From assembly GCF_002075285.3 (NCBI RefSeq), contig NZ_CP021983.2, forward strand, positions 4,350,001-4,382,000: a stretch of 32,000 bases of DNA, read 5' to 3'. Every line of letters starts with the position of its first letter. Position 1 is the stretch's first letter. The position numbers and the translations under genes were made by a program. The stretch is from Halomicronema hongdechloris C2206. Its GTDB lineage: Bacteria > Cyanobacteriota > Cyanobacteriia > Phormidesmidales > Phormidesmidaceae. Positions 12,629 through 24,483 of this stretch are shown here, piece after piece. The notes beneath the pieces were generated by a model. The model worked only from the letters and a program-made list of their open reading frames with translations. It searched no databases and was not told the origin of the DNA.

Positions 12629-14170
12629 TCATTCATCTTCGTTGGATGAAATGGTGTCGTAGCCAGGTTCAAATAGGAACACATGAATGCCTTTAGTAAA
12701 TTTTCGGTAGTTCCTTTTATAGAGTTTGTTAGAGGAAAAAATCTGTTCCAAGCTTTCAATAGAGGGTTGATCACGGCAATACCTGAAGCAAATTATCCAG
12801 AGACGCTTACTTGCAGAAATAATCTCATGAATAGTTGATGTATTATCAGAGCCTTCTAACTCTTTCTTAAGAGCTATGTGCTGCTGATCATTTGTTTTAG
12901 AATTCTCTAAATAGACACTGTTAATCAGGAAATGAAAGGGAATCGTTCTATCATGGTAGTGGGCTATGGCCGGCAGAACTTTCTCAACATTTGTATATAG
13001 TATAAAAGCATCGTTAGCTTGCTTATTTGTCTTAATGAACTGTATTGCTCCACGCCAATCCTCATGATTAGGCAGACTATAATAGTAGTATAAGCCTCCG
13101 CCCACGCCCAAAGTATAAATTACTACAATTACAGATGCAATGATAGCCTGGAAGTGCCAGACCCGAATAAAACTTGCTGCTAAAAGTATGAAAACATAAG
13201 GACAAACTAATAGAAGATATCGATCGAGCCAAATGGAACTCGATATGTAAGAAATAAACAAGATTGAGGCGGACGGTAAAACTGCCCATGCCGTAACCCA
13301 ATTAAGATTTTGTGAACGATGCTTTAGCAATAAGGCAAATGGAAGTAAGAAAGTCGCTAAAATAGTACATATCTTATAAAAGTAATTTAATGGCTCAGAA
13401 AGTGCTGACGAATAAGGTGGATGAAAAAGGAATTCTTTTAGGATGATTAAGATCTCTTTTAGTCCTGGCTTCATTCTTGTAACTACGCCAGAGGAAGCCA
13501 TAAAGTCTGGCCCACTTTTAGTTAGTAGTGTAAATGCCGCCGGAGCACAGATTAATCCTGTAATCACTAGTCCTTCAATAAAAGATAGAAGTTTGCGCCC
13601 CTGTTTATGAAACTGACACCAGATAATCGTAGCATCTGGCAATAGGAGTACCACATTCAACGGTGTAGTCAGTATTGCTAAAGCTCGCAGGATGGCCCAT
13701 GAATAAAGAAAGAGCCGTTGCGGACATTGAAGAGCATATGTCAGTACAAGTGTCCCAAACAGATTCAAGAAAACACTTAAGGAGTAAAATCTTACCTCTT
13801 GGACATGATTAATAAACAGAGGCGAGAGAGCGAGAAGAAGCGCTGCTACTAAGCCAACAGATCTATTAACTAAGCGTTGACCAATCAAATAAGTTATGAG
13901 AATGCTACCTAGGCCGAAAGGGATGGATAATCCCCGCAGCCATACTTCGCTTTCACCAAATACCATCCAAACTTTTAGAAGTGCGTAGTAGAGTGGCTTC
14001 ACATGATACAAAATTCGGGGTATCTCTAGGTTTATGTTTTGAGCATCATGTATGCTATAAAGTTCGTCTACCCATAAGCTTTCGGATCCTAGTTTGTAAA
14101 GATAGAGTGCGCAAGAAATTAGCAAAATAAATGTTAGGGGAAATAGTTCCTTTATTTCTTTCCTAATCAT
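12629..14170 (-). CDS. GT-C fold membrane glycosyltransferase (ArnT / PMT_2, GT39/GT83-like) with a C-terminal soluble domain
   Basis: The 513 aa product has the first-loop acidic motif SLWVDELYS after TM1, followed by about 10 or more hydrophobic segments and a soluble C-terminal tail of roughly 130 aa. It is convergent with the GT2 gene. Confidence 0.85.
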   Translation of the reverse strand: MIRKEIKELFPLTFILLISCALYLYKLGSESLWVDELYSIHDAQNINLEIPRILYHVKPLYYALLKVWMVFGESEVWLRGLSIPFGLGSILITYLIGQRLVNRSVGLVAALLLALSPLFINHVQEVRFYSLSVFLNLFGTLVLTYALQCPQRLFLYSWAILRALAILTTPLNVVLLLPDATIIWCQFHKQGRKLLSFIEGLVITGLICAPAAFTLLTKSGPDFMASSGVVTRMKPGLKEILIILKEFLFHPPYSSALSEPLNYFYKICTILATFLLPFALLLKHRSQNLNWVTAWAVLPSASILFISYISSSIWLDRYLLLVCPYVFILLAASFIRVWHFQAIIASVIVVIYTLGVGGGLYYYYSLPNHEDWRGAIQFIKTNKQANDAFILYTNVEKVLPAIAHYHDRTIPFHFLINSVYLENSKTNDQQHIALKKELEGSDNTSTIHEIISASKRLWIICFRYCRDQPSIESLEQIFSSNKLYKRNYRKFTKGIHVFLFEPGYDTISSNEDE

Positions 14171-14315
14171 GACTTTGTACGTGGGTTTTTCTAAGATTTT
14201 CCTGATGATTTATAAAGTCTAGGAAGGGCAAGGAGTGCATCCCACTTTCGTAACCCTCATTCTAGGGCAAGCTACTAGGCACACATAAGTCCTGAAGCCC
14301 TTGCGGTTAGAGCGT

Positions 14316-14426
14316 CTCCCTCATCCCCCAACCCCTTCTCCCGCTCTGGGAGAAGGGGAGCCGGAAAGCCTTTTATGGCCTCCCCCTCGCCCATTTTTGG
14401 GAGAGGGGGACTGAGGGGGTGAGGGC
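14316..14426. repeat. GC-rich nested-palindrome element (MITE-like small dispersed repeat) in AT-rich spacer
   Basis: Inner perfect hairpin: CCCCTTCTCCC (14332-14342) / GGGAGAAGGGG (14348-14358). Second, imperfect hairpin: CCCCTCGCCCA ttttt TGGGAGAGGGG (~14383-14408). Outer arms: CCCTCATCCCCC (14318-14329) / GGGGGTGAGGG (14415-14425). It accounts for the spurious ORF 14321-14524 (…SPSPKNGRGGG…GEGVGG). Confidence 0.7.
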
Positions 14427-15476
14427 AAACTTGCAAAACTGGGATGCTCCCAAGGGCAAGTACAATATGCCGTGTTTATTCTCATCTTAAGATAAAAGAT
14501 TGGCAGCAATAGGAGATAAATCATTAAGACCTCTTGTTCTCTTGGTTAAAGTACTGCGATTCATTAACTAGTTTTGTTGATGCAATACTAGAAATCTATC
14601 CAGATAATTCTTCGGATCTTGATTTTTTTAACGAAATAGGGTGCCCGCAAGACTCTGGGGTTTGACTTAAACAAGCTGTCTGTTCTTGCCTTAACTCTCA
14701 TTTTCTTGGAGAGAGAAACTGGTCCACTTGCTCGTTCTCTCTTCCTTCAGCAGAGGATTAGGGCAAGAAGCTTTTGGGCATTAGTCTAGATATTTTGTCA
14801 GTTGATCAGGTTCCTAAGTCTTAACTTGGTCAGAACTTTGCGATCTAAGTAAAAGCACGTAGATCTTTATGCTAGAACACTATAGTCTGAACTGACTTTA
14901 CATACAGTTGCCATCAGCTGAACTTTACCGAAGCTTCAAGATTTGAAAACAATTATAAAGGTCAAGAAGTGAAGTCATGGCTTCATACAACCTTTTCCAC
15001 CTCCCTTGATTTAGGTAAATGTCTCGAGTTCCTCGGGTGTCACTATTAGGTATATCTTATATTGGGACTGAATAAATCTACAAAGTTGACTCACTCAGCC
15101 ATTCAGAGAGTGGTAATAATAGGTGTACTATTTCCCAAAAGGTAGAGGCCATTATACTTTAGAATAAATTAATTAAGCTGCTTCGTATATGAAATTTTCA
15201 CTAAAACTAGTGTCGGTACTTGCATTATCTCGACTGTGCGCGGTACTTATTACGCATATCTACTATGTTCATCGGAAAATTTTTCTTTTTTAAGAAGCTG
15301 CATCATTAAATTGATTTATTTCCTTGCTCCTTATTGGATATAAAAGTCCGGACAATTTTCTGAAAGGGCACTGAACCCCTTGATGTCTCGTTCCCATCCA
15401 CCTGGCAAAAGATAACTGAAACCCTCATTCTGTCGTTAGCTCTCAAAAACTGTCCGGAGTATTGTGGATACTAATC

Positions 15477-16037
15477 ATGAATATTCTATTTTTGTCTCCT
15501 CAGCCCTTTTATCAAGACCGAGGCACGCCAATCGCTGTGCACATGGTTCTTCAGACTTTGTCCCATCGCGGTAATCGAGTTGATGTTGTAACTTACCCAG
15601 AGGGAAGGGAAATGGTTTACGAGCATGTAAGTATTCATCGTGCACCTAAGCTTCCCTTAATTAAGGGTATCCGTCCAGGATTCTCTTGGACAAAGATTAT
15701 ATACGACTTGTTTATGCTATTTCAAGCATTTAGTCTAGTGACTAAGCAAAAATATCATCTAATTCATGCTGTTGAAGAAGCAGTATTTATAGCTCTATTA
15801 ATCAAAATTTTGTTCAAGATTCCTTATGTTTACGATATGGATTCTTCTCTTCCCCAGCAGTTGATCGAAAAATGTCCATATTTATCTATAGTTCTTCCTT
15901 TACTAAATTTTTTTGAAGGTCTTGCAGTAAAAAATGCAAAAGTGACAGTTCCTGTTTGTCTTACTCTAGCAAACAATGTTAGAGCAAAATACGGCTCCAC
16001 AAAAATTGTGCTTCTACCTGATGTTACTCTCGTATAA
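15477..16037 (+). CDS. GT4 glycosyltransferase, N-terminal (acceptor/Glyco_trans_4) half only
   Basis: MNILFLSPQPFYQDRGTPIAVHMVLQTLSHRGNRVDVVTYPEG...HAVEEAVFIAL...VPV... ends at TAA 16035-16037, at the position of the inter-domain linker. The ATG at 15477 is preferred to the TTG at 15462. Confidence 0.7.
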   Translation: MNILFLSPQPFYQDRGTPIAVHMVLQTLSHRGNRVDVVTYPEGREMVYEHVSIHRAPKLPLIKGIRPGFSWTKIIYDLFMLFQAFSLVTKQKYHLIHAVEEAVFIALLIKILFKIPYVYDMDSSLPQQLIEKCPYLSIVLPLLNFFEGLAVKNAKVTVPVCLTLANNVRAKYGSTKIVLLPDVTLV

Positions 16038-16072: not shown

Positions 16073-16720
16073 ATGCTAATTCCACATGCCTCTAATAATT
16101 TAAAGAAGCAGTTCTATATTAAAGGCTGCTTAGTAATGTATGTTGGGAATCTTGAAGCCTATCAAGGGATTGACTTATTGCTAGAGAGCTTTTCCCTTGT
16201 CCTTAAAGAGCTTGCTGAAGCAACTTTGGTCATCATTGGAGGTGATCCCAACCATATTCAGCGGTATCGTGGACAAGCCAAATATCTTGGTATCGAAGGC
16301 AGGGTTCATTGGTTAGGTTCAAAGCCCGTTGAAGCCCTGCCAAGCTACCTCTCGCAAGCTGACATCTTGGTTTCTCCAAGAGTCCAGGGAGTAAATACAC
16401 CAATGAAGCTTTATTCATATCTTGGTTCAGGAAAAGCAACTCTAGTGACAGATCTTCCAACCCATACTCAGCTAGTTGATGAGACCGTTGCTATGATTGC
16501 TGTACCTGAACCAAAGGCCTTTTCTAAGGGTATGCTTTCTCTGATAAGGGATGCTAATCTTAGGAGTCGTTTGGGAATAGCTGGTCAAAAGCTAATCGAA
16601 GAGAACTTTTCCCGTCAGGCTTTTTGCGATCGCTTAAACTCACTATATGATTGGCTAGAGAATGAAATCGGATATGTTTCCTCTAGAACTCGTGAAAAAT
16701 CTTCGATTTCAAATATCTAA
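16073..16720 (+). CDS. GT4 glycosyltransferase, C-terminal (donor/Glycos_transf_1) half only
   Basis: ...CLVMYVGNLEAYQGIDLLLESF...LVIIGGDP...VHWLGSKPVEALPSYLSQADILVSPRVQGVNTPMKLYSYLGSGKATLVTDLPTH... It is in a different frame from the N-half. All three frames contain stops between 16035 and 16069. Confidence 0.7.
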   Translation: MLIPHASNNLKKQFYIKGCLVMYVGNLEAYQGIDLLLESFSLVLKELAEATLVIIGGDPNHIQRYRGQAKYLGIEGRVHWLGSKPVEALPSYLSQADILVSPRVQGVNTPMKLYSYLGSGKATLVTDLPTHTQLVDETVAMIAVPEPKAFSKGMLSLIRDANLRSRLGIAGQKLIEENFSRQAFCDRLNSLYDWLENEIGYVSSRTREKSSISNI

Positions 16721-16744: not shown

Positions 16745-18460
16745 ATGAAGCGAGATTTATCAGAGCTTGTAGGAAAAACCTATGATCTCCTAGTGATCGG
16801 TGGAGGCATATATGGAGCTTGTGTAGCTTGGGAGGCTAGTCTGAGAGGATTGTCAGTTGTTTTAGTGGAAAAGGGAGATTTTTGTTCAGCAACTTCTGCA
16901 AATAGTCTCAAAATAATTCATGGAGGTTTGAGATATCTCCAGCATGGAGATTTTTCTAGGATGAGGCAGTCGATCAAAGAGCGGCAGGCCTTATTAAAAA
17001 TTGCGCCTCACCTAATTCACCCTTTGCCAGTTTTGGTACCTACATATGGACATGGTCTAAAGGGAAGAGAAGCCTTAACCTTTGCACTTTTGGTTAATGA
17101 CCTGGTGAGTTACGATCGAAATCATTGTCTTTCAGATCCTCAAAAACATATCCCATCAGGTCGCACACTGTCCAAAGATGACGTCCTAAAGCTAGTCCCA
17201 GGCATTTCTGATACTAACTTAACTGGGGGTATACTTTTTCATGATGCACAGGTTTATAATTCTGAACGCCTGACGCTAGCCTTTCTTCACTCTGCTACAC
17301 AAATAGGGGCAAAGATCGCTAACTATGTTGAAGTGACTAGCTTCCTTCAGATAAGGAATCAGGTGAGCGGTGTTGTGGCAAAGGATCATTTAACAGGCTG
17401 CAAATTTGATATCCAGGCGAAAGCTGTTGTTAACACTAGCGGTCCATGGGTGAGTCAAATATCAAATTTGCTTCATAAGAAAACCTCGTCGCTTACTATA
17501 CCACTTGCTAAGGCGGTAAACATAGTGACTCGTCCTTTATTCAAACACCCTTATGCAGTAGGCCTTTCGGGCCATGTAGCTCACCAAAAAACAGAACCAA
17601 TAGAAAGTCAAGGTAGCCGCCTATTTTTCATAGCACCTTGGCGAGGGAAGTCGATGGTTGGTACGGCTTATTTCCCCTACGAAGATAGTCCAGATTCTCT
17701 TGCAGTAACCGAGCAAGAGGTTATGGAATTTATTGGGGATATCAATCGAGTCTATCCAGCTGCCAAGCTTCAGTTGGAAGATGTTTGCTTTGTTCATCGG
17801 GGATTACTCCCTTGCGCTAATGTTGATCCTAAGGCAGGGAACGTTAAGCTGACTAAGCGGTACCAACTCTATGACCACTGCCAAGATGGATTAGCCGGAC
17901 TATTATCAGTAGTGGGAGTTAAGTACACGACAGCGAGGAATGTTGCTCATAAAGTGGTCGACTGGGTTATGCAAATATGTAGCCAGGAACCGAGTCAGTC
18001 CGCCTCTTCCCTGACACCTCTCCATGGAGGAGAAATTGAGAACTTTAATGAATTCTTACGAACTGCGCAAAAAGAATATGCTTCAATTTTATCGGGAAAA
18101 GCAATTCAAGATTTAGTTTATAACTATGGCTCTAGTTATTCAAAAGTCTTAGAATATCTTGATGATTCAGCAGCTGTAAGCAAGAGCATTGGAGACGAAC
18201 TTCCTATTGATAGTTTTGCAGTTCTGAAGGCGGAGACACGATATGCTGTTAATGAGGAAATGGCCCAAAAACTCACTGACTTAATTTTGAGGCGTACATC
18301 TTTAGGTTCGGCTGAACGGCCCACCAATCAGGAAATGCAGATTTGTGCAGACGTTATGGGAAAGGAACTTGGATGGGGACTGAAAAAAGTTCAAGAGGAA
18401 CTTCAAGCAGCAATAGACTTCTTTGATACTAATTTTTCTTCCTGCAAATCATCACTGTAA
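16745..18460 (+). CDS. FAD-dependent oxidoreductase of the glycerol-3-phosphate dehydrogenase/oxidase (GlpD/GlpO, DAO + DAO_C) family
   Basis: The dinucleotide fold YDLLVIGGGIYGACVAWEASLRGLSVVLVEKGDF is followed by SATSANSLKIIHGGLRYLQHGDF, as in GlpD. The C-terminal helical domain contains ETRYAVNEEMAQKLTDLILRRTSLG. The ATG at 16745 is preferred to the TTG at 16736. Confidence 0.85.
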   Translation: MKRDLSELVGKTYDLLVIGGGIYGACVAWEASLRGLSVVLVEKGDFCSATSANSLKIIHGGLRYLQHGDFSRMRQSIKERQALLKIAPHLIHPLPVLVPTYGHGLKGREALTFALLVNDLVSYDRNHCLSDPQKHIPSGRTLSKDDVLKLVPGISDTNLTGGILFHDAQVYNSERLTLAFLHSATQIGAKIANYVEVTSFLQIRNQVSGVVAKDHLTGCKFDIQAKAVVNTSGPWVSQISNLLHKKTSSLTIPLAKAVNIVTRPLFKHPYAVGLSGHVAHQKTEPIESQGSRLFFIAPWRGKSMVGTAYFPYEDSPDSLAVTEQEVMEFIGDINRVYPAAKLQLEDVCFVHRGLLPCANVDPKAGNVKLTKRYQLYDHCQDGLAGLLSVVGVKYTTARNVAHKVVDWVMQICSQEPSQSASSLTPLHGGEIENFNEFLRTAQKEYASILSGKAIQDLVYNYGSSYSKVLEYLDDSAAVSKSIGDELPIDSFAVLKAETRYAVNEEMAQKLTDLILRRTSLGSAERPTNQEMQICADVMGKELGWGLKKVQEELQAAIDFFDTNFSSCKSSL

Positions 18461-18480
18461 TTCTAAGCTGAATAAAATAA

Positions 18481-19029
18481 ATGCCTTCACCAATTGCTCA
18501 TTCAGTTGCTGGATATGTTTTGTCAGTGATCAAGTCTAGAGAAATCAATCTACTTACTTGGAAAAAAATATGGCGAACAGATACATTTTATGTGGTCTTT
18601 ATATCAAATGCACCTGACTTAGATTTCCTTATCCAGGCTTTCTCGAACGAGAAAATACATCGAGGGTTTACTCATAGTATCACAGCCGCTTTGGGAGTAA
18701 GTCTCTTTGCTGTTATTGCCAGCCATATTTTTCATAAGCTATCACACTTTAAATCCCTATTCTGGGTAACGTTGATGCTCTACAGTCTTCATTTATTTTT
18801 AGACTACTTCACGGCTGGTGGCCCGGGTATGCAATTGCTTTGGCCTTTCACCAATGAATTTTATCGCTCCTCAGTTTCCTTATTTCCTGGAGTACATCAT
18901 TCCCGCGGAGTTTTAGACTGGAGCCATATCCAATTCGTTAGCTATGAATTGATATTCTCAGGATTACTGATATGGGGCTTAAAACATTGGAAATCTTATA
19001 GAAAAGATAGTAAAAAGTCATTAACTTGA
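18481..19029 (+). CDS. membrane-bound metal-dependent hydrolase, YdjM-like (PF04307-type)
   Basis: The 182 aa product begins MPSPIAHSVAGYVL, and has APDLDFL, HRGFTHSI and 4-5 hydrophobic helices. It starts 20 nt after the upstream stop. Confidence 0.7.
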   Translation: MPSPIAHSVAGYVLSVIKSREINLLTWKKIWRTDTFYVVFISNAPDLDFLIQAFSNEKIHRGFTHSITAALGVSLFAVIASHIFHKLSHFKSLFWVTLMLYSLHLFLDYFTAGGPGMQLLWPFTNEFYRSSVSLFPGVHHSRGVLDWSHIQFVSYELIFSGLLIWGLKHWKSYRKDSKKSLT

Positions 19030-19083
19030 TTAGCTAGATATTCATATTTATAGTTGATTCTTAATATGAGGACTACTAAATAA

Positions 19084-19896
19084 ATGTCTTCTGTTGCACT
19101 TATAGATGCACATGTCCACATTCATAACTGCTTTAAACTAAGACAGTTACTAGATTCTGCTCGGGAAAACTTTTGTCGAGCTCAGCCTTTGCACCCGGAA
19201 AACTGTTTAGGAGTCTTGATTATTACGGATATCGGTCCTCGAAGTTGGTTTCAAGAACTTAGTCAAAATCTCTTTACATGTGATGCCTCGACTTCTTGTA
19301 GGGTCGGCGAACAGTGGCTCATTACAAGAACTCAAGAGTCATATTCTCTAATGGCTCAACATTGTCAAGGTCAGAAAATGATTTTGCTCTTGGGACGTCA
19401 AATTGTAACTCAGGAAGGAGTTGAGATTTTAGCTCTGATAACTGAGAATGATTTTCCAGATCATTTACCTTTAGAAATAACTGTTCAATCTATTCTGTCT
19501 GCTCAGGCTTTGCCAGTATTGCCTTGGGGAGTAGGTAAATGGATCGGACCACGGGGCTCTTATATCCAGCGTTTTTTGGACACTCACTATGCATCTCATA
19601 TCTTTTTGGGAGACAATAGTGGCCGACCGAGTTTCTGGCCTCGGCCGAGCCATTTCAAGCAAGCCGAACTAAAAGGTGTTCGTATATTGCCAGGCACAGA
19701 TCCCTTGCCTTTAGAAAATGAGTATCGCCGACCCGGTAGTTTTGGATTTAAGCTTTTATGCTCTTTAGATCAGAACTCTCCAGGAGAAGATTTAAAACGG
19801 CTATTGCTGAATCCCTCTACGGTAATTCAGCCTTACGGCGACTTAGAGAATCCACTCCGATTTCTTCGAAACCAATGGATGCTTAGATTCAAATGA
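19084..19896 (+). CDS. hypothetical protein with N-terminal HxH metal-binding motif (amidohydrolase/PHP-like?)
   Basis: The 270 aa product begins ALIDAHVHIHN at its N-terminus. Later conserved-looking patches are LPWGVGKWIGPRG, FLGDNSGRPSFW and ILPGTDPLP. I do not recognise a named family. Confidence 0.55.
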   Translation: MSSVALIDAHVHIHNCFKLRQLLDSARENFCRAQPLHPENCLGVLIITDIGPRSWFQELSQNLFTCDASTSCRVGEQWLITRTQESYSLMAQHCQGQKMILLLGRQIVTQEGVEILALITENDFPDHLPLEITVQSILSAQALPVLPWGVGKWIGPRGSYIQRFLDTHYASHIFLGDNSGRPSFWPRPSHFKQAELKGVRILPGTDPLPLENEYRRPGSFGFKLLCSLDQNSPGEDLKRLLLNPSTVIQPYGDLENPLRFLRNQWMLRFK

Positions 19897-19977
19897 CCTA
19901 AAAAACCCGCTTATTTAACCAATTTTAGTGTAAAATCCATATCTTAATAGTCTAAGTAGCCGGAGAATTTAAAATTT

Positions 19978-20964
19978 ATGGCAAAGGTTTTAGTCACAGG
20001 TGGCAAGGGATTTCTAGGTAGCCACTTGGCAGCTAAGTTAGCAAAAACAGAGGATCAAGTTCGTATTTTTTCCCGTCAAAAAGGTACGAATAGTTCAATT
20101 TTAAGAGATTCTAATTATGAATTCTCTTGGGGTGATATTAGAGATTCAAGGGCTGTTGAAAATGCAGTTGAAGGGGTTGATTACATTATTCACACAGTCT
20201 CTAATTTTCGCAAAGGAGGCTCGGATAAAGATGACGCTTACTCTACAAATGTTGAAGGCACTGAGAACATACTGAGAGCAGCAGAAAAGCATAATGTTCA
20301 ACACATAATTCACTGTAGCACGATTGGTGTGCATGGCACAGTTTTAGAAATCCCTGCAAATGAAGATACTCCATTCAATCCAACTGATCTCTATCAAGAA
20401 ACAAAGTTGATTGCAGAAAAGAAGGTTTGGGAATTCTATCAGAAAACCAAATTACCGATCACCGTCATTCGCCCTATCTCTCTCTTTGGAGCGGGCGATA
20501 TGCGGATGCTTAAGCTTTTTCGTCTGATTAAGCAGGGAAAATTTATTATCGTAGGAGATGGAGAGGTATTATTTCATCCCGCCTATATCGATGATGTAGT
20601 TCAGGGATTTCTCCTTTGCCTAGGTAATGAGAGAGCTTTTGGAGAAGCATTCATCATCGGAGGGGAAGGATATTTGACATTGAATGAACTATGTGGCCTG
20701 ATTGCAGAAGAGTTGAAGGTTCGTCCTCCAAAACTTTATGTGCCGATGGTACCAGTGCTAGCTCTGGCAACTCTCTGCGAGAAAATTTGTGTGCCTTTGG
20801 GAATTGAGCCACCCTTGCATAGACGGCGAGTCAGCTTTTTTCAAAATAATCGAGCATTTTCCATCGATAAAGCGAAACAGATTTTAGGATATCAACCCCA
20901 ATTCTCTCTGGAAGAAGGTATTCAGAAAACAATCCAATGGTATCAGGCACAAGGATGGCTATAG
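19978..20964 (+). CDS. NAD-dependent epimerase/dehydratase (extended SDR)
   Basis: The Rossmann motif is KVLVTGGKGFLGSHL and the catalytic YxxxK is LYQETKLIAE. The 328 aa length is typical of sugar-nucleotide epimerases, dehydratases and reductases. Confidence 0.9.
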   Translation: MAKVLVTGGKGFLGSHLAAKLAKTEDQVRIFSRQKGTNSSILRDSNYEFSWGDIRDSRAVENAVEGVDYIIHTVSNFRKGGSDKDDAYSTNVEGTENILRAAEKHNVQHIIHCSTIGVHGTVLEIPANEDTPFNPTDLYQETKLIAEKKVWEFYQKTKLPITVIRPISLFGAGDMRMLKLFRLIKQGKFIIVGDGEVLFHPAYIDDVVQGFLLCLGNERAFGEAFIIGGEGYLTLNELCGLIAEELKVRPPKLYVPMVPVLALATLCEKICVPLGIEPPLHRRRVSFFQNNRAFSIDKAKQILGYQPQFSLEEGIQKTIQWYQAQGWL

Positions 20965-20974
20965 GTTAGATACT

Positions 20975-21772
20975 ATGAGTAATATAGAAAATTTCTCGAC
21001 TCATGAACCATTGACTATTCAAAAGAATGAAGAGATTCAAAAAACTGCACTTCAAGCAGCATTAATTGATTCTAAAAAGTCAGCCTTACAGAAATATCAA
21101 GACTTTGCCGTTGGGTCTTCTAAGTTATCAGCGTTACTGAAATATGAAATATTAACAGGGATATTTGGACCAATTCCTGGAGCACTCGGATTGGTCTTAC
21201 GTAAACGGTTTTATAAATCTTTGTTTGGTAGTATTGGTCGAGGTGTGGTTTTTGGCAAGTCGATAACAATTCGCCATCCCCATAAGATTCACATTGGCGA
21301 AAACGTTATCATTGACGATTATGCTGTTTTGGATGCCAAAGGGACTGATAACCAAGGAATCACCATCGGTAATAATGTCATGATTGGTAGGAATTCAGTG
21401 ATTAGCTGCAAGAATGGCGATATCACGATTGGTGATAACACTAATATTGCAATGAACTGCTTTATTCAATCTGCCAAAACTGTTCATATTGGCGCAAATG
21501 TCTTGATTGCACCATACTGCTATGTGATTGGTGGTGGAGATCATGAAACAGTTAGAACTGATATTCCAATCATCGCTCAGGGGCAGATTGTGAAGGGAAT
21601 CATAATTGAAGATAACTGTTGGCTTGGCGCTGATGTAAAGGTCTTAGACGGGATCAAAATTGAACGAGATAGTATTATTGGGACGGGTGCTGTTGTCACT
21701 AAATCCCTTCCGGAATTTAATGTTGCTGTTGGTATACCTGCAAAGGTAATTAAAATTAGAAAAAACGGCTAA
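20975..21772 (+). CDS. left-handed beta-helix (hexapeptide) O-acetyltransferase, WcaF/EpsM-like, with ~70 aa N-terminal extension
   Basis: Repeated [LIV]-G-x4 turns are present: IHIGENVIIDDYAVLD, ITIGNNVMIGRNSVI, ITIGDNTNIAMNCFI, VHIGANVLIAPYCYV and IIIEDNCWLGADVKVLDGIKIERDSIIGTGAVV. Confidence 0.85.
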   Translation: MSNIENFSTHEPLTIQKNEEIQKTALQAALIDSKKSALQKYQDFAVGSSKLSALLKYEILTGIFGPIPGALGLVLRKRFYKSLFGSIGRGVVFGKSITIRHPHKIHIGENVIIDDYAVLDAKGTDNQGITIGNNVMIGRNSVISCKNGDITIGDNTNIAMNCFIQSAKTVHIGANVLIAPYCYVIGGGDHETVRTDIPIIAQGQIVKGIIIEDNCWLGADVKVLDGIKIERDSIIGTGAVVTKSLPEFNVAVGIPAKVIKIRKNG

Positions 21773-21842: not shown

Positions 21843-23030
21843 ATGAAAGCAGTTTCTATACAAAATATTGAGCAGACAGATGATGTCATGGCCTCTAGAT
21901 CTCTAGACCGACATATTCATGTGATGCATATTATTGACAAGCTAAGTGTTTCTGGATCAGGAGTTCATGGAGTTGGTAGAGCAATTGAGTGGTGGATTCC
22001 CCGATTTGATTCTAATGAATTTCGATTCAGTATTTGTAGTTTACGCACGCCTGAAGCTGCTGGAAAAGTTTTTGAGGAACAGGGAATACCTCCTTTTTTC
22101 CTTGGCAGAGGGAAGTTTGATGTGAGAACCGTTTTAGATCTAGTTAAGCTGATTAAAAGAGAGAGACCACATGTTCTCCACCTGCACGGTTATGGAGCTA
22201 CAAATTTCGGACGAATTGCAAGTTTCTTGACAGGCACTCCTAATATTGTCCATGAGCACACAGTAATTGATAATCAACCGCTATATCAAACTATAGTTGA
22301 CACATTTCTATCACCGCTGACGAGTAAGGCGATTGCTATTTCTCAACCTGTATACGAATTTATGATTCGTCACCGCAAAATAGATCCAGCGAAACTAGAT
22401 GTATTCTTTTATGGCATCCCGCTTTCTGAATTTCAAGCACCTGAGCAAAGAGAAATTCAAGAAAAGAGGAGTAAATTAAATATTGACCCAGACGAACATG
22501 TTATCTGTAATGTTGGTCGCTTAGATACACAAAAGGGACAAATTTATTTGTTAAAAGCAGCAATCCTCGTTCTTAAAGAACTACCTAATACGCGATTCCT
22601 AATTGTTGGGGAGGGTCCAGATCGAGAGATGTTAGAGTCTTTCGCTAGGGAAAACGGTATTAGCGATCGTATCATTTTTACTGGATTGCGTAAAGACGTT
22701 CCTACATTACTTGCCTTATCTGATTTAGTTGCGATTCCATCTTTATGGGAAGGAGGTCCGTTAACTCTATTTGAAGCAATGAACCTTAGCAAACCAGTTA
22801 TTGGCACTCCTGCTGGAATGATGGGTGAAGTTATCAGTAATGGTAAGACAGGTTTCCAAGTTCCGTTGCGGAGCGTAGATGAATTAGCTGAGAGAATAAT
22901 TTATTTGCTCAAGAATCCAACTATAGCAAAGCGAATGGGTGGAAGGAGTTGGAAAGTTTGTCAAAATTATGATATCTCAGCATCAGTGAGACGTCTTAGT
23001 GAAATCTACAGAGAGCTCTTTAGAACTTGA
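21843..23030 (+). CDS. GT4 glycosyltransferase (intact)
   Basis: VGRLDTQKGQIYLLKAAILVLKELPNTRFLIVGEGPDRE...FTGLRKDVPTLLALSDLVAIPSLWEGGPLTLFEAMNLSKPVIGT contains the E-x7-E region. The start could be an internal Met (such as 21888). Confidence 0.9.
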   Translation: MKAVSIQNIEQTDDVMASRSLDRHIHVMHIIDKLSVSGSGVHGVGRAIEWWIPRFDSNEFRFSICSLRTPEAAGKVFEEQGIPPFFLGRGKFDVRTVLDLVKLIKRERPHVLHLHGYGATNFGRIASFLTGTPNIVHEHTVIDNQPLYQTIVDTFLSPLTSKAIAISQPVYEFMIRHRKIDPAKLDVFFYGIPLSEFQAPEQREIQEKRSKLNIDPDEHVICNVGRLDTQKGQIYLLKAAILVLKELPNTRFLIVGEGPDREMLESFARENGISDRIIFTGLRKDVPTLLALSDLVAIPSLWEGGPLTLFEAMNLSKPVIGTPAGMMGEVISNGKTGFQVPLRSVDELAERIIYLLKNPTIAKRMGGRSWKVCQNYDISASVRRLSEIYRELFRT

Positions 23031-23085: not shown

Positions 23086-24483
23086 ATGAAAAAGCTTCTC
23101 AACCGTCTAGATTTATCATATCTATATGCTTTTATTGGAGAGGCAACTCTAGGCTTAACATTTGTTTTTTACATTCTATTAGCAAGGATATTAGGTCCTG
23201 ATCAATACGGAGTTTTCGCAGCAGCTACAGCATTGGCTGGCATCTTATCGTTTTTCATTCAATTTGGTTTGCCAGCTTTGTTGACGCGAGAAGTTGCAGC
23301 TCATCCTGATAGAGGACCTAAAGAAACATCAACATTTCTAGTTTTAGAAGGTTTGCTTTCTATCCCTGTTCTGTTACTACTACCCTTTTTAGCTGGCATA
23401 TTCAAATTTGATAGCAATGGGCTTGTCGTGTGTTACATTGTTGTGCTAGCCGAGGTATGCCGTAGTGCTAAGCAAACATTAAGGGGAGTGATTCGCGGAT
23501 TGGGGCAGTTTCGGACGGAAACAACTTCTGTAGCACTTGAGCGTTTTTTATCAGTTGCATTCGCAAGCCTTACATTATTTTGGACTGAGAATTTAATTTG
23601 GGTTGTCGGCATTTTTACGATAATACGAATCCTGGATATTATAGGATTAATTTTCTACTTATGTCGAAAAACAAAAATCTGGTCTAGGCTCAGCTTGAAG
23701 AGTTTATGGCATTCATTACGAATTTCTTATCCATTTGCTCTTTCAAGTGTTTTGTGGATTCTTTATTACCAAATCGACATATTGATGTTGAAAGGATTAG
23801 CACAAACTAGTGATGTTGGTTTTTATAATGCTGCTTATCGAATTATCGAAGTTTTTGGTTCAGTCCCTCGTGTAGTTTTTCTCGTTTCATTTACTCGCAT
23901 GGCTAGGTGTCATGAAAATCATCCAGAAAAACTATCAACTGAACTCTATAAAACAGCTTACCTGCTTCTGTTGTCGACGTTGCCACTACTTATTGTTTCT
24001 GGCTTTGGCCAACAAATTATCATAAATACTCTCTATGGTAAAGACTACTATCTTGCAGGTGCCTCATTAGCAATCTTATTGCCAAGCTTGGGGATCAAAA
24101 TGTTCGGAACTTTAGTTGAATACTTTTTACAAGCAACTCAACGAGAACACCTTCTTCCTATGCTATTGGGAGTCACTGTTGTCTTAAATACTACTTTAAA
24201 TGCTGTTCTTATACCTTACTTAGGAGCAGTTGGTGCTGCTTTAGCAACTCTATCTAGTGAAATTGTATTAGCTATCTTTGGACTTTGGATAATGGCTCGA
24301 GTCGGATTTGCTCAAGTAGGTCGAACGCTTCAAATTATTTCATTATTTAGTTTATTAGCGGCGGCCACTCCCTCTTTTCTTTTGAATGGTCTTAATCCTT
24401 TGATATGTTTGGGGATACTCTTAATGAGTATTGGCATAATTGTCTCATTTTCTGCAAAAAACTTTTGTAGAAGTTTATCATAA
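23086..24483 (+). CDS. Wzx-like oligosaccharide flippase (MOP superfamily, Polysacc_synt)
   Basis: The 465 aa product has about 12 or more hydrophobic helices. Its N-terminus (LTFVFYILLARILGPDQYGVFAAATALAGILSFFIQFGLPALLTREVA) is typical of polysaccharide flippases. Confidence 0.8.
   Translation: MKKLLNRLDLSYLYAFIGEATLGLTFVFYILLARILGPDQYGVFAAATALAGILSFFIQFGLPALLTREVAAHPDRGPKETSTFLVLEGLLSIPVLLLLPFLAGIFKFDSNGLVVCYIVVLAEVCRSAKQTLRGVIRGLGQFRTETTSVALERFLSVAFASLTLFWTENLIWVVGIFTIIRILDIIGLIFYLCRKTKIWSRLSLKSLWHSLRISYPFALSSVLWILYYQIDILMLKGLAQTSDVGFYNAAYRIIEVFGSVPRVVFLVSFTRMARCHENHPEKLSTELYKTAYLLLLSTLPLLIVSGFGQQIIINTLYGKDYYLAGASLAILLPSLGIKMFGTLVEYFLQATQREHLLPMLLGVTVVLNTTLNAVLIPYLGAVGAALATLSSEIVLAIFGLWIMARVGFAQVGRTLQIISLFSLLAAATPSFLLNGLNPLICLGILLMSIGIIVSFSAKNFCRSLS

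What the first reader, a model, noticed from the sequence alone, without database searches (positions are those of the whole stretch)
16745..20964. Unusual tailoring module inside the glycan operon: GlpD-like FAD oxidoreductase + YdjM-like membrane metallohydrolase + unknown HxH protein + SDR
Four co-directional genes are separated by only 20, 54 and 81 nt. They sit between glycosyltransferases and directly upstream of an acetyltransferase, a GT4 and Wzx.

A glycerol-3-phosphate dehydrogenase/oxidase-family flavoenzyme (with its DAO_C tail) is not a standard component of Wzx-type loci. Neither is a YdjM-type membrane hydrolase, and the 270 aa HxH protein has no family I can name.

The same island also encodes a polyprenol-P GT2 and a GT-C enzyme, which suggests two precedents. 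In the DprE1 (FAD) / DprE2 (SDR) route, oxidation then reduction epimerises a polyprenyl-phosphate sugar that GT-C enzymes then use. In the Arn pathway, ArnC (GT2) is followed by a metal-dependent deacylase (ArnD) and then ArnT (GT-C). DprE1 belongs to a different flavoenzyme fold, so this is an analogy only.

A third possibility is formation of a glycerol/dihydroxyacetone-phosphate-derived substituent. Any of these would be an undescribed route in cyanobacteria.
Basis: inference. Interest (0 to 1): 0.72.

Follow-up and report, generated by a model that had tools for sequence, protein, structure and literature searches.

The report
Conserved glycan-tailoring cassette, chemistry unknown
The four genes are real and form part of a gene cassette found next to polysaccharide-export genes in hundreds of bacterial species; it pairs a mis-annotated "glycerol-3-phosphate dehydrogenase" whose substrate pocket has been rebuilt with a large enzyme family that has never been described, so it probably makes an unknown sugar modification.

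Summary
The ORFs lie at 16745-18460, 18481-19029, 19084-19896 and 19978-20964, with gaps of 20, 54 and 81 nt, and the family calls hold.

The window is from Halomicronema hongdechloris, in a 41% GC island within a 57-59% GC genome.

- The genes co-occur widely. In 43 loci with full flanks, the HxH gene is accompanied by the flavoenzyme in 39, an SDR in 41, a GT4 in 41 and an acetyltransferase in 36.
- The flavoenzyme is not housekeeping GlpD. All 194 clade members examined keep the FAD site and the catalytic His, but R317, H233 and D272 are replaced by L/V/I, N and Y/H/Q.

The "HxH" protein founds a family of about 2,570 sequence clusters with no Pfam or NCBIfam model. Its predicted fold is PHP-like. 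It overlaps the flavoenzyme gene by 4 nt in Rhodobacterales and is fused to a methyltransferase in 13 loci.

YdjM is an accessory gene, mostly cyanobacterial. The GT2 and GT-C genes are only loosely linked to the cassette.

Best reading (inferred, not shown): a cytoplasmic oxidise, process, reduce, acetylate tailoring line acting on a phosphate-linked sugar or polyol. This resembles the mycobacterial DPA route but uses unrelated folds. No published description was found.

The parts
10185..11282 (+). ArnC/GtrB-like polyprenyl-phosphate glycosyltransferase (GT2 with two C-terminal TM helices). Island context, loosely associated with the cassette.
   Evidence: Pfam Glycos_transf_2 97 bits. NCBIfam ArnC model 230 bits, below the 529 cut-off. 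TM segments at 287-305 and 312-330. Orthologs lie within 10 kb of HxH in 13 of 43 full-flank loci.
11328..12696 (+). Two transposase fragments (11328-11822 and 12010-12696), remnants of mobile elements inside the island.
   Evidence: NF041680-family transposase, C-terminal part only (166 bits against a 440 cut-off), and a weak IS66-like match. The close relative L081 has a DDE_Tnp_4 gene at the same position.
12629..14170 (-). GT-C fold membrane glycosyltransferase (PMT_2/ArnT-like), transcribed divergently from the operon.
   Evidence: Pfam PMT_2 26.8 bits against a 26.1 cut-off. At least 7 hydrophobic segments. Orthologs near HxH in 11-12 of 43 full-flank loci.
14171..15461 (.). 1.3-kb divergent intergenic region with no ORF of 80 aa or more; presumed promoter region for the rightward operon.
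   Evidence: ORF lists. The promoter scan was not above shuffled controls, so the promoter itself is not located.
15462..16037 (+). GT4 glycosyltransferase, N-terminal (acceptor) half, encoded as a separate ORF. Cassette member.
   Evidence: Pfam Glyco_transf_4. GT4 orthologs are next to the cassette in 73 of 80 loci and 41 of 43 full-flank loci. The gene is split into two ORFs in 38 loci, with gaps from -4 to 265 nt in all three frames. L081 calls the N-half from the ATG that corresponds to 15477.
16073..16720 (+). GT4 glycosyltransferase, C-terminal (donor-binding) half. Cassette member.
   Evidence: Pfam Glycos_transf_1 78 bits. Best solved relatives of the unsplit ortholog are MshA (3c48/3c4q) and PimA, over the C-domain only.
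16745..18460 (+). GlpD-clade FAD flavoenzyme with a remodelled substrate pocket; not a canonical glycerol-3-phosphate dehydrogenase. Core of the cassette.
   Evidence: DAO plus DAO_C. GlpD equivalogs score 258.7 (cut-off 360) and 236.7 (cut-off 352). In E. coli GlpD numbering, H50, R54, Y55, T270, K354 and R359 are kept, while H233 becomes N, R317 becomes L and D272 becomes Y. The same pattern holds in 74 of 74 locus orthologs and 120 of 120 database homologs. The canonical residues are present in 2QCU, 3DA1 and 2RGH.
18481..19029 (+). YdjM-family small membrane protein (predicted five-helix bundle with invariant His/Asp). Accessory to the cassette.
   Evidence: Pfam YdjM 67.5 bits. Invariant residues: H7, D46, D48, H60, H65, H104, D108, E156. 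AF2 pLDDT 87.9. No fold match in the PDB. Present in 43 of 80 loci, all of the cyanobacterial type-A arrangement, plus a divergent copy in L083.
19084..19896 (+). 'HxH' protein: founding member of a large unannotated family with a PHP-superfamily-like (beta/alpha) barrel. Core of the cassette.
   Evidence: No Pfam, NCBIfam or PDB sequence hit. The family has 2,574 clusters at 50% identity. AF2 pLDDT 82.8, pTM 0.85. Foldseek top hits are PsfC, the TM0559 PHP phosphoesterase and EndoQ, at probability 0.99-1.00 and query-normalised TM about 0.5. Invariant in 80 sequences: D8, H10, H12, E85, E111, E114, K152, R157, D177, R181, D206.
19978..20964 (+). Extended SDR (3beta-HSD/HpnA/OleD-like), the predicted ketoreductase partner.
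   Evidence: Pfam Epimerase 139 bits, 3Beta_HSD 113 bits. Best NCBIfam matches are HpnA (167.6, cut-off 367.65) and OleD. The TGxxGxxG motif and S114/Y139/K143 are conserved in 78 orthologs. Best PDB match is 3WJ7, a putative oxidoreductase. Present in 41 of 43 full-flank loci.
20975..21772 (+). Hexapeptide-repeat (WcaF-like) acyltransferase. Cassette member.
   Evidence: Pfam Hexapep. WcaF family 95.8 bits, below the 192 cut-off. Present in 36 of 43 full-flank loci. It co-varies with the SDR type.
21843..23030 (+). Second GT4 glycosyltransferase of the operon.
   Evidence: Pfam Glycos_transf_1 136 bits plus Glyco_transf_4. Orthologs of 58-69% identity follow the acetyltransferase in L007, L014, L024, L035, L041, L053 and L079.
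23086..24483 (+). Wzx/MOP-family flippase.
   Evidence: Pfam Polysacc_synt 96.9 bits. 11 hydrophobic segments.
24735..26345 (+). DUF5060-domain protein with a lipoprotein-type N-terminus; putative periplasmic glycan hydrolase and last gene of the operon.
   Evidence: Pfam DUF5060. The N-terminus ...LLSFFNLSC reads as a lipobox (sequence). The Nitrospira locus L054 has DUF5060 fused to a GH5 cellulase domain.

Best explanation
The four genes are the centre of a conserved, horizontally mobile tailoring cassette found in Wzx-type exopolysaccharide loci. Its order here is GT4 (two half-genes), a remodelled GlpD-clade flavoenzyme, a YdjM-like membrane protein (accessory), a new PHP-fold metalloenzyme ('HxH'), an extended SDR and a hexapeptide acyltransferase. 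The deepest core is the HxH plus flavoenzyme pair.

Most likely mechanism. The steps below are inferred; only gene content, conservation and residue patterns are shown. The cassette works at the cytoplasmic face of the membrane and passes through a keto intermediate.
1. The flavoenzyme keeps FAD binding and the catalytic His of GlpD/GlpO. It has lost the Arg/His/Asp that define the G3P pocket (now Leu/Asn/Tyr). It therefore oxidises a secondary alcohol next to a phosphate-linked carbon on something bulkier or less charged than free G3P, either a carrier- or phosphate-linked sugar or a glycosylated polyol.
2. The PHP-fold enzyme acts on the same molecule, either removing a phosphate or rearranging the keto/enediol form.
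3. The SDR reduces the ketone, giving an epimerised or otherwise altered residue.
4. The free hydroxyls are capped with acetyl (this window) or methyl (variants in which a methyltransferase is fused to HxH).
5. The GT4 builds the unit into the glycan, and Wzx exports it.

This is the logic of the mycobacterial decaprenyl-phospho-arabinose route (transferase, phosphatase, FAD oxidase, NADH reductase), built from unrelated protein folds.
For: Conservation:
- HxH relatives occur in at least 583 species genomes.
- In 43 loci with full 10-kb flanks, GT4 is present in 41, SDR in 41, the flavoenzyme in 39 and the acetyltransferase in 36.
- The same set appears in rearranged order in Nitrospirota, Gammaproteobacteria and Syntrophia, and on 4 of 4 alphaproteobacterial replicons.
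- HxH and the flavoenzyme overlap by 4 nt in L083 and L084.

Flavoenzyme:
- H233N, R317L/V/I and D272Y/H/Q are seen in 74 of 74 locus orthologs and 120 of 120 database homologs, with H50, R54, K354 and R359 kept.
- Canonical GlpD and GlpO keep H, R and D at those positions.
- It scores below the GlpD equivalog cut-offs.
- The His equivalent to H50 is the proposed catalytic base in MpGlpO (PMC10726252).

HxH:
- PHP-like fold.
- Invariant acidic and His residues sit at the C-terminal ends of the strands, together with invariant K152, R157 and R181.
- It is fused to a SAM methyltransferase in 13 loci, and the methyltransferase lies directly downstream in about 19 more.

SDR: intact catalytic triad and a 3beta-HSD/OleD-like ketoreductase type.

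Location: no TM segment or signal peptide in the flavoenzyme, HxH, acetyltransferase or GT4 C-half.

Context: always EPS loci. The Nitrospira locus has Wzz, a BY-kinase, a Bac_transf priming transferase, a porin, a deacetylase and sulfotransferases. The Rhodobacterales loci have a Wzy-like ligase, an export protein and a BY-kinase.

Precedent: the DPA pathway steps, and a cytoplasmic SDR epimerase acting on an Und-P-pentose, are described in PMC11127046. In L036 a xylose-isomerase-like TIM barrel, a family that handles alpha-hydroxyketones, sits next to the flavoenzyme.
Against: - There are no biochemical or genetic data for any member.
- The substrate is not identified.
- The roles of R317, H233 and D272 in GlpD are recalled from the primary literature, which I could not open.
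- The PHP assignment is by fold only, at a modest TM-score of about 0.5, and only two His are invariant, so the metal site differs from classical PHP enzymes.
- The closest structural neighbour, PsfC, is an oxidative diiron enzyme and not a hydrolase.
- The SDR is not adjacent to the HxH-flavoenzyme pair in two alphaproteobacterial replicons, so reduction may not be obligatory.
- The polyprenyl-P GT2 and the GT-C are near the cassette in only 18 of 43 loci.
- Gene order does not prove reaction order.
Confidence: 0.45

Rival explanations
1. A glycerol-phosphate-derived unit. The GT4 glycosylates sn-glycerol-3-phosphate (or a similar C3 phospho-metabolite), in the way MshA or sucrose-phosphate synthase glycosylate phosphorylated acceptors. 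HxH is the dedicated phosphatase. The flavoenzyme no longer needs the anion-binding Arg and oxidises the now-neutral glyceryl C2-OH. The SDR re-reduces it, and acetyl or methyl groups cap the freed hydroxyls. The product is a glyceryl or dihydroxyacetone-type aglycone or substituent on the EPS.
For: - The flavoenzyme descends from G3P enzymes.
- Loss of R317 goes together with an obligatory PHP-fold partner; most PHP enzymes are phosphoesterases.
- HxH has invariant K/R/R residues suited to binding an anion.
- HxH is immediately adjacent to the GT4 in the non-cyanobacterial arrangements.
- The HxH-methyltransferase fusion fits methylation of a hydroxyl unmasked by dephosphorylation.
- The GT4's nearest solved relatives, MshA and PimA, use polyol-phosphate acceptors.
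- FkbH-domain genes, which use 1,3-bisphosphoglycerate, recur in 9 loci.
Against: - The MshA/PimA match covers only the donor-binding domain.
- No glycerol-containing EPS is known for these organisms.
- A soluble glycoside has no obvious route into a Wzx-exported polymer.
- R54, Y55, K354 and R359, which could still bind phosphate, are retained.
- The purpose of an oxidation followed by a reduction on glycerol is unclear.
Confidence: 0.25
2. An Arn-like route. A polyprenyl-phosphate sugar made by the ArnC-like GT2 is deacylated by a metal hydrolase (HxH or YdjM), re-acylated by the hexapeptide transferase, flipped, and transferred by the GT-C.
For: - The GT2 scores 230 bits on the ArnC model, and a GT-C is in the island.
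- HxH and YdjM carry metal-ligand-like invariant residues.
- PHP and amidohydrolase barrels share an HxH motif on strand 1 (general knowledge).
Against: - No cassette protein is a NodB/ArnD-type deacetylase.
- Foldseek finds PHP proteins, not amidohydrolases.
- GT2 and GT-C are absent from most loci within 10 kb.
- This route does not explain the universally coupled flavoenzyme.
Confidence: 0.06
3. HxH is a regulatory PHP-type protein phosphatase (like CpsB/YwqE) that controls a BY-kinase, or a PAP phosphatase that serves the sulfotransferases. The flavoenzyme and its neighbours would then be unrelated tailoring genes.
For: - PHP-like fold.
- BY-kinases and sulfotransferases occur in some loci.
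Against: - There is no BY-kinase or sulfotransferase in this island.
- CpsB/YwqE and PAP phosphatases are not among the Foldseek hits.
- Only two His are invariant.
- HxH is translationally coupled to the flavoenzyme and fused to a methyltransferase, not linked to a kinase.
Confidence: 0.05
4. An ordinary housekeeping glpD that sits by chance among unrelated polysaccharide genes.
For: - Databases name it 'glycerol-3-phosphate dehydrogenase'.
- It has the DAO plus DAO_C architecture.
Against: - It scores below all GlpD/GlpO/GlpA equivalog cut-offs.
- It has lost R317, H233 and D272 in 194 of 194 clade members.
- Synteny with HxH, GT4 and SDR is conserved across phyla.
- It lies in a horizontally acquired low-GC island.
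Confidence: 0.02

Closest known systems
GlpD / GlpO (FAD-dependent sn-glycerol-3-phosphate dehydrogenase/oxidase; PDB 2QCU, 3DA1, 2RGH)
   Same: DAO plus DAO_C domain architecture. About 30% identity over the full length. GxGxxG FAD motif. HGGxRY motif with the catalytic His. K354 and R359 equivalents retained.
   Different: Scores below the equivalog cut-offs. The invariant H233, R317 and D272 are replaced by N, L/V/I and Y/H/Q throughout the clade. Always embedded in EPS loci next to HxH, not in glp operons.
Mycobacterial decaprenyl-phospho-arabinose route (Rv3806c transferase, Rv3807c phosphatase, DprE1 FAD oxidase, DprE2 reductase, then flippase and GT-C)
   Same: The same four catalytic types sit in one conserved cassette: a transferase, a phosphoesterase-fold enzyme, an FAD oxidase and an NAD(P)-dependent SDR. 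A polyprenyl-P GT2, a flippase and a GT-C are also present in this island (pathway as described in PMC11127046).
   Different: Every fold differs. The flavoenzyme is DAO/GlpD-type, not VAO-type like DprE1. HxH is PHP-like, not PAP2. The transferase is a GT4 or GT2, not a PRPP-dependent UbiA-like enzyme. The link to GT2 and GT-C is facultative. The substrate is unknown.
Three-component periplasmic glycosylation systems (GtrB/GtrA/Gtr*; C. youngae PPPRS, MATE flippase and GT136, with an auxiliary SDR epimerase)
   Same: The island encodes a GtrB/ArnC-like GT2, a MOP-family flippase and a GT-C, plus cytoplasmic redox enzymes that could alter the lipid-linked donor.
   Different: The cassette occurs without GT2 or GT-C within 10 kb in 25 of 43 full-flank loci. 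It adds a flavoenzyme and a PHP-fold enzyme that are not part of the described systems.
PHP superfamily metalloenzymes (TM0559 phosphoesterase 2ANU, PsfC 7RTY, EndoQ 5ZB8)
   Same: Predicted beta/alpha barrel with an HxH motif at the end of strand 1 and acidic residues at the strand ends. These are the top Foldseek matches, at probability 0.99-1.00.
   Different: No detectable sequence similarity. TM-score is only about 0.5. Only two His are invariant, so there is no classical trinuclear His-rich site. Function is unknown, and PsfC shows that the fold also supports non-hydrolytic chemistry.
Glycoside-phosphate synthase plus phosphatase pairs (MshA/MshA2, SPS/SPP, GgpS/GgpP); general knowledge
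   Same: A retaining GT-B (GT4) gene lies immediately next to a putative phosphoesterase gene. The GT4's nearest solved relative is MshA.
   Different: Known partner phosphatases are HAD-family enzymes, their products are soluble solutes, and none involves a flavoenzyme or an EPS locus.
Arn (L-Ara4N) pathway
   Same: An ArnC-like GT2 (230 bits) and an ArnT-like GT-C are in the island.
   Different: Both score below or only at family level. There is no ArnA, ArnB or ArnD homolog, and no NodB-type deacylase in the cassette.

Membership tests
GlpD/GlpO (FAD-dependent G3P dehydrogenase/oxidase) | DAO FAD-binding/substrate domain plus the DAO_C C-terminal domain | tested here: met
   PF01266 158 bits; PF16901 65.3 bits
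GlpD/GlpO (FAD-dependent G3P dehydrogenase/oxidase) | Score above the curated equivalog cut-off | tested here: not met
   NF008899 258.7 against 360; NF009906 236.7 against 352; GlpO type 1 225.6 against 840; GlpA 144 against 553
GlpD/GlpO (FAD-dependent G3P dehydrogenase/oxidase) | Catalytic His in the HGG(L/I)RY motif (H50 in EcGlpD, His51 in MpGlpO) | tested here: met
   H50, R54 and Y55 conserved in 73 of 74 and 119 of 120 sequences. Role of the His per PMC10726252.
GlpD/GlpO (FAD-dependent G3P dehydrogenase/oxidase) | Pocket residues R317 (the 'G-x-R-P' Arg), H233 and D272, invariant in solved GlpD/GlpO | tested here: not met
   L/V/I, N and Y/H/Q in 194 of 194 clade members. R, H and D are present in 2QCU, 3DA1 and 2RGH.
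GlpD/GlpO (FAD-dependent G3P dehydrogenase/oxidase) | Oxidation of sn-glycerol-3-phosphate to DHAP | not testable with these tools
   Needs an enzyme assay
YdjM (PF04307) | Pfam gathering score and conserved His/Asp positions | tested here: met
   67.5 bits against 29. H7, D46, D48, H60, H65, H104 and D108 are invariant.
YdjM (PF04307) | Metal-dependent hydrolase activity, as the family is annotated | not testable with these tools
   No solved structure resembles the model. The E. coli YdjM equivalog scores 22 against 216. The label is untested.
PHP superfamily | Distorted (beta/alpha)7 barrel fold | tested here: inconclusive
   The top 11 Foldseek hits are all PHP-type proteins at probability 0.99-1.00, but query-normalised TM is only 0.47-0.53. 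The model has pLDDT 82.8.
PHP superfamily | HxH motif at the end of strand 1 | tested here: met
   D8-x-H10-x-H12 is invariant in 80 sequences and lies at the end of strand 4-12
PHP superfamily | Full set of His/Asp/Glu ligands for the two- or three-metal site | tested here: not met
   No invariant His other than H10 and H12. Candidate ligands are E85, E111, E114, D177 and D206 only.
PHP superfamily | Sequence match to the Pfam PHP models | tested here: not met
   No Pfam hit at E<=10 for 22 members. No PDB sequence hit.
Extended SDR (NAD-dependent epimerase/dehydratase, PF01370) | TGxxGxxG cofactor motif and Ser-Tyr-Lys triad | tested here: met
   T7, G8, G11, G14, S114, Y139 and K143 conserved in 78 orthologs. 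PF01370 139 bits.
Extended SDR (NAD-dependent epimerase/dehydratase, PF01370) | Membership of a named NDP-sugar epimerase/dehydratase or HpnA equivalog | tested here: not met
   HpnA 167.6 against 367.65; GalE 83.7 against 262; RmlB 89.6 against 365
DprE1/DprE2 epimerase system | DprE1-type (VAO/FAD_binding_4) flavoenzyme | tested here: not met
   The flavoenzyme is DAO/GlpD-type
DprE1/DprE2 epimerase system | Flavoenzyme paired with an NAD(P)-dependent SDR reductase | tested here: met
   SDR present in 41 of 43 full-flank loci. It is absent next to the pair in L083 and L084.
DprE1/DprE2 epimerase system | Polyprenyl-phosphate sugar substrate consumed by GT-C enzymes | tested here: inconclusive
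   GT2 and/or GT-C lie within 10 kb in 18 of 43 loci, and both in 7 of 43. The substrate itself cannot be tested.
Arn pathway | ArnD-type (NodB) deformylase and ArnA/ArnB homologs | tested here: not met
   None among the island proteins

The most novel reading that the evidence does not exclude
A GlpD-family flavoenzyme has been recruited as a DprE1-like oxidase of a lipid- or phosphate-linked sugar. Together with a new PHP-fold enzyme family and an SDR, it forms a convergent, DPA-like epimerisation and tailoring pathway. That pathway installs an as-yet-unidentified residue in the exopolysaccharides of cyanobacteria, Nitrospirota, Proteobacteria and Chloroflexota.
Probability: 0.3. Interest if true: 0.85.

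Novelty: new variant of a known kind. Interest (0 to 1): 0.62.

Why it matters
- Thousands of database entries called "glycerol-3-phosphate dehydrogenase" appear to be something else.
- A family of about 2,570 sequence clusters has no annotation at all, yet it has a clear genomic partner and a predicted metal site.
- The cassette marks EPS loci in ecologically important mat- and bloom-forming cyanobacteria, nitrifiers and marine Roseobacter-group bacteria. It probably encodes a sugar modification that cannot be predicted from known nucleotide-sugar pathways.
- If the DPA-like logic holds, redox epimerisation of carrier-linked sugars would be shown to be widespread and to have arisen more than once.
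- The hypothesis is directly testable with four soluble recombinant proteins and with EPS composition analysis.

Tried and rejected
**Searches that gave nothing**
- HxH against Pfam, NCBIfam and PDB sequences.
- HxH profile against the PDB: only spurious light-harvesting-protein matches to a 'PG-DPL' motif.
- Pfam at E<=10 for 22 HxH members: nothing.
- The exhaustive profile search returned only close family members, so it gave no sequence bridge to PHP.
- Foldseek of the YdjM model: no match.
- tRNA and Rfam scans of the window: empty.
- Promoter and terminator scans: below shuffled controls, uninformative.
- An inverted-repeat search of the 14171-15461 spacer at a minimum length of 14: nothing.

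**Literature**
- I could not open Yeh et al. 2008 or Elkhal et al. 2015 on GlpD/GlpO residue roles, so those roles are marked as recalled.
- The first PsfC search was wasted on clinical fosfomycin papers.
- Two searches for any description of the cassette found nothing.

**Ideas considered and dropped**
- Hormogonium polysaccharide (hps) genes: far below cut-offs.
- SqdB/SqdX sulfolipid genes: no such family hit.
- Phosphonate tailoring, suggested by PsfC: no PepM-like family among the neighbour families present in 5 or more loci.
- HxH as a PAP phosphatase for sulfotransferases: sulfotransferases are absent here and in most loci.
- HxH as a CpsB-like tyrosine phosphatase: see the rival explanations.
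- The split GT4 as a frameshift pseudogene: rejected, because the split recurs in 38 loci with different gaps and frames.

Full report
**1. Observation**

The ORF listing shows four co-directional ORFs on the + strand:

| Coordinates | Length | Identity |
|---|---|---|
| 16745-18460 (an upstream TTG lies at 16736) | 571 aa | flavoenzyme |
| 18481-19029 | 182 aa | YdjM-like |
| 19084-19896 | 270 aa | "HxH" protein |
| 19978-20964 | 328 aa | SDR |

The gaps between them are 20, 54 and 81 nt, exactly as reported. Gene calls in a close relative agree with these starts (L081).

Pfam and NCBIfam confirm the family assignments:
- The first protein has DAO plus DAO_C.
- The second is a YdjM-family protein (67.5 bits against a cut-off of 29).
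- The third matches no family.
- The fourth is an extended SDR. Its best matches are HpnA, OleD and 3beta-HSD-like models, all below their cut-offs.

The neighbouring genes are also as described:
- Downstream lie a hexapeptide acetyltransferase, a GT4, a Wzx flippase and a DUF5060 lipoprotein.
- Upstream is a GT4, encoded here as two ORFs.
- Further left are a divergently transcribed GT-C, two transposase fragments and an ArnC-like GT2.

**2. Source and setting**

The HxH protein is identical to XM38_041460 of Halomicronema hongdechloris C2206.

The genes lie in an island of 41% GC (operon 40%) between flanks of 59% and 57% GC. A metagenomic relative with 86% HxH identity has the same island between the same flanking genes (His_Phos_1, NdhM, PP2C), also with a transposase between the GT2 and the GT-C. 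The operons most similar to this one sit in cyanobacterial genomes of 34-39% GC. The island was therefore most likely acquired horizontally.

The 1.3-kb stretch 14171-15461 has no ORF and separates the leftward GT-C gene from a rightward operon of about 11 kb, 15462-26345. Promoter and terminator scans were not informative.

**3. The cassette is conserved**

A pattern scan of one genome per species found at least 583 genomes that encode an HxH relative, and the best 80 loci were fetched. I analysed these by tblastn with all island proteins and by clustering all ORFs in the loci.

| Gene | Present in 43 loci with full 10-kb flanks |
|---|---|
| GT4 | 41 |
| SDR | 41 |
| Flavoenzyme | 39 |
| Acetyltransferase | 36 |
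| YdjM | 27 |
| ArnC-like GT2 | 13 |
| GT-C | 11-12 |
| GT2 and GT-C together | 7 |

Three arrangements recur:
- **Type A (most cyanobacteria, and this window):** GT4, flavoenzyme, YdjM, HxH, (methyltransferase), SDR, acetyltransferase.
- **Type B (Planktothrix, Lyngbya and some Gammaproteobacteria):** HxH, GT4, AsnB-type amidotransferase, flavoenzyme, SDR, acetyltransferase.
- **Type C (Nitrospirota, Thiotrichaceae and others):** HxH, GT4, flavoenzyme, SDR.

On four of four alphaproteobacterial plasmids or chromids (Antarctobacter, Leisingera, Rhodobacteraceae S2214, Indioceanicola), HxH and the flavoenzyme again occur together. In two of them the HxH stop overlaps the flavoenzyme start by 4 nt. 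The deepest core is therefore HxH plus the flavoenzyme.

A YdjM profile found the gene only in the 43 type-A loci. One divergent copy also lies next to the pair in Rhodobacteraceae S2214 (25.3 bits).

**4. The flavoenzyme is not GlpD**

It aligns over its full length with E. coli GlpD (2QCU), the B. halodurans enzyme (3DA1) and Streptococcus GlpO (2RGH). However, it scores below every GlpD, GlpO and GlpA equivalog cut-off.

| Position (E. coli GlpD numbering) | Canonical GlpD/GlpO | 74 locus orthologs | 120 database homologs |
|---|---|---|---|
| H50, R54, Y55, T270, K354, R359 | conserved | kept | kept |
| H233 | H | N in 72, S in 2 | N in 120 |
| R317 | R | L/I/V/Q in 74 | L/V/I in 120 |
| D272 | D | Y/H/Q | Y/Q/H |

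The three canonical enzymes all have H, R and D at those positions. The alphaproteobacterial copies carry N233 and I317.

The His equivalent to H50 is the proposed catalytic base of MpGlpO (PMC10726252). As I recall from the primary literature, which I could not open here, the Arg of the "G-x-R-P" motif binds the anionic group of the substrate across the D-amino-acid-oxidase superfamily.

My inference is that the enzyme is still an alcohol-oxidising flavoenzyme, but its substrate is not free G3P. Public databases nevertheless label the clade "glycerol-3-phosphate dehydrogenase/oxidase".

**5. The HxH protein**

- It has no Pfam, NCBIfam or PDB sequence match, even at E<=10 and even with a profile.
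- The family is very large: 2,574 clusters at 50% identity, of which 1,932 score at E<=1e-30.
- An AlphaFold model built from 22 sequences is confident (pLDDT 82.8, pTM 0.85) and shows alternating strands and helices.
- Foldseek against the PDB ranks only PHP-type proteins at the top: PsfC 7RTY, the TM0559 phosphoesterase 2ANU and EndoQ 5ZB8, at probability 0.99-1.00 and E down to 2.4e-5, but with query-normalised TM-scores of only about 0.5.
- Across 80 sequences from several phyla the invariant residues are D8, H10, H12, E85, E111, E114, D177 and D206, plus the basic residues K152, R157 and R181. The acidic and His residues sit at the C-terminal ends of the predicted strands. That fits a metal site with an anion-binding pocket, but with far fewer His than classical PHP enzymes.
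- PsfC is a dinuclear non-heme-iron enzyme that is not a hydrolase (PMC12871164), so the fold does not fix the chemistry.
- In 13 of 80 loci HxH is fused to a class-I SAM methyltransferase, and in about 19 more that gene follows within 2-77 nt. This argues that both act on one substrate.

**6. The other members**

- **YdjM-like protein.** It is predicted as a five-helix bundle (pLDDT 87.9) with invariant His and Asp residues. It has no structural relative in the PDB, so "metal-dependent hydrolase" is an untested label.
- **SDR.** It keeps TGxxGxxG and the Ser-Tyr-Lys triad. Its nearest solved relative is a putative oxidoreductase, 3WJ7, not an NDP-sugar epimerase. Two SDR/acetyltransferase variants exist. 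This window has the type that follows HxH directly (70-74% identity to 9 loci). The more common type follows the methyltransferase (36-38% identity).
- **GT4.** It is encoded as two half-size ORFs in 38 loci, with gaps from -4 to 265 nt in all three frames, and as one gene elsewhere. Its nearest solved relatives are MshA and PimA, over the donor domain only.
- **Location.** A hydropathy scan finds no membrane segment or signal peptide in the flavoenzyme, HxH, the acetyltransferase or the GT4 C-half. The chemistry is therefore cytoplasmic or at the inner face of the membrane.

**7. Context is always polysaccharide biosynthesis**

- The Nitrospira locus L054 has Wzz/GNVR, a BY-kinase, a Bac_transf priming transferase, a porin, a DUF3473 deacetylase, a sulfotransferase, APS kinase, FkbH and a DUF5060-GH5 protein.
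- Recurrent accessory families are an XrtA/PEP-CTERM-type AsnB amidotransferase (21 loci), flippase-like HpnL-type proteins (13), FkbH-domain proteins (9), sulfotransferases, Acyl_transf_3 and a PgaB-like deacetylase.
- The alphaproteobacterial loci contain a Wzy-like ligase, export proteins and a BY-kinase.
- No nucleotidyltransferase or kinase recurs that would point to a dedicated activated precursor.

**8. Mechanism**

What is shown: the gene set, its conservation, the remodelled pocket, the predicted fold, the gene fusions and the predicted cytoplasmic location. What follows is inferred.

- The simplest reading of a conserved pair of an alcohol-oxidising flavoenzyme and a ketoreductase-type SDR is oxidation to a ketone followed by reduction, which amounts to epimerisation or tailoring through a keto intermediate.
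- In G3P the oxidised carbinol is next to the carbon that bears the phosphate ester. The C2-OH of a polyprenyl-phosphate- or nucleotide-linked sugar has the same relationship to its phosphate, and that is the position DprE1 oxidises.
- The cassette core uses the same four catalytic types as the mycobacterial DPA route (PMC11127046): a transferase (Rv3806c), a phosphatase (Rv3807c), an FAD oxidase (DprE1) and a reductase (DprE2). All the folds differ.
- The same paper shows that a cytoplasmic SDR can epimerise an Und-P-pentose in a three-component system made of a polyprenyl-P-sugar synthase, a MATE flippase and a GT-C. This island also contains an ArnC/GtrB-like GT2, a MOP flippase and a GT-C.
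- GT2 or GT-C lies within 10 kb of the cassette in 18 of 43 loci. By a rough estimate this is well above what a few copies per genome would give by chance, but it is far from obligatory.

I therefore favour keto-intermediate tailoring of a phosphate-linked sugar or polyol before export (confidence 0.45). In this model HxH either removes a phosphate or processes the keto/enediol form. In L036 a xylose-isomerase-like barrel, from a family that handles alpha-hydroxyketones, sits next to the flavoenzyme.

The main rival (0.25) is a glycerol-phosphate-derived unit. Here the GT4 glycosylates G3P, HxH dephosphorylates it, the Arg-less flavoenzyme oxidises the neutral glyceryl group, the SDR reduces it, and methyl or acetyl groups cap the freed hydroxyls.

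The other readings have little support:
- Arn-like deacylation: 0.06.
- A regulatory or PAP-phosphatase role for HxH: 0.05.
- Housekeeping glpD: 0.02.

**9. Comparison and novelty**

The flavoenzyme is a member of the DAO/GlpD structural family, but it fails the equivalog and pocket tests for GlpD itself. HxH resembles PHP enzymes by fold only. The system works like the DPA route in outline but is not a member of it.

Two full-text searches found no description of the cassette.

I classify it as a new variant of a known kind: a glycan-tailoring module built from one repurposed family and one undescribed family. It matters because of its breadth, because of the systematic mis-annotation of the flavoenzyme, and because it is directly testable.

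**10. Limits**

- All functional statements are inferences from sequence, predicted structure and gene context.
- Loci were limited to 10 kb on each side, and many contigs were truncated, so the co-occurrence figures are lower bounds.
- The residue roles in GlpD rest on recalled literature.

Noticed in passing
window 15462-16037 and 16073-16720; loci L002-L070: The cassette's GT4 (a GT-B fold enzyme) is encoded as two separate half-size ORFs, an acceptor domain and a donor domain, in this window and in 38 of 80 related loci. The gaps range from -4 to 265 nt and fall in all three relative frames. Other loci carry it as one gene. It looks like a recurrent, functional split similar to Alg13/Alg14, not a pseudogene.
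   Followed up: partly
L007, L013, L015, L020, L024, L039, L044, L045, L046, L050, L051, L053, L055 (HxH ORFs of 529-569 aa): HxH is fused at its C-terminus to a class-I SAM methyltransferase in 13 loci. In about 19 more loci the methyltransferase gene follows within 2-77 nt. This window's variant has no methyltransferase and carries a different SDR/acetyltransferase pair.
   Followed up: yes
window about 10000-26350; transposase fragments at 11328-11822 and 12010-12696: The whole glycan island is 41% GC in a 57-59% GC genome. It contains two transposase fragments (NF041680-family C-terminus and IS66-like). The same island, in the same flanks, is present in a metagenomic relative (L081). This indicates horizontal acquisition, probably from low-GC filamentous or pleurocapsalean cyanobacteria.
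   Followed up: partly
database entries P0268-P0387: Public records name the remodelled flavoenzyme clade 'glycerol-3-phosphate dehydrogenase/oxidase' or 'aerobic glycerol-3-phosphate dehydrogenase', although all 120 lack the GlpD-invariant Arg, His and Asp. This is probably a systematic mis-annotation. The clade also occurs in Chloroflexota/Anaerolineae.
   Followed up: yes
window 24735-26345: The last gene of the operon encodes a DUF5060 protein with a lipoprotein-type N-terminus (...FFNLSC). In Nitrospira locus L054 the same domain is fused to a GH5 cellulase domain. It is probably a periplasmic glycanase that processes the polymer.
   Followed up: partly
window 14300-14430: A short GC-rich element with nested imperfect palindromes sits in the otherwise AT-rich divergent intergenic region; one example is CCCCTTCTCCC-gctct-GGGAGAAGGGG. 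It yields similar Pro/Gly/Glu-rich pseudo-ORFs on both strands. It may be a small cyanobacterial repeat or MITE-like element. The repeat tool at a minimum length of 14 did not report it.
   Followed up: partly
L036 2778-3920: In a Syntrophaceae locus a xylose-isomerase-like TIM-barrel gene (AP_endonuc_2) lies between the flavoenzyme and a methyltransferase. That family acts on alpha-hydroxyketones, which hints that the flavoenzyme product is such a ketone.
   Followed up: no
L085 680-2175 and 7001-7821 (Leisingera sp. NJS201 plasmid): Both the flavoenzyme and the HxH gene are annotated as two adjacent or overlapping CDSs each, so the cassette may be decaying (frameshifted) in this strain.
   Followed up: no
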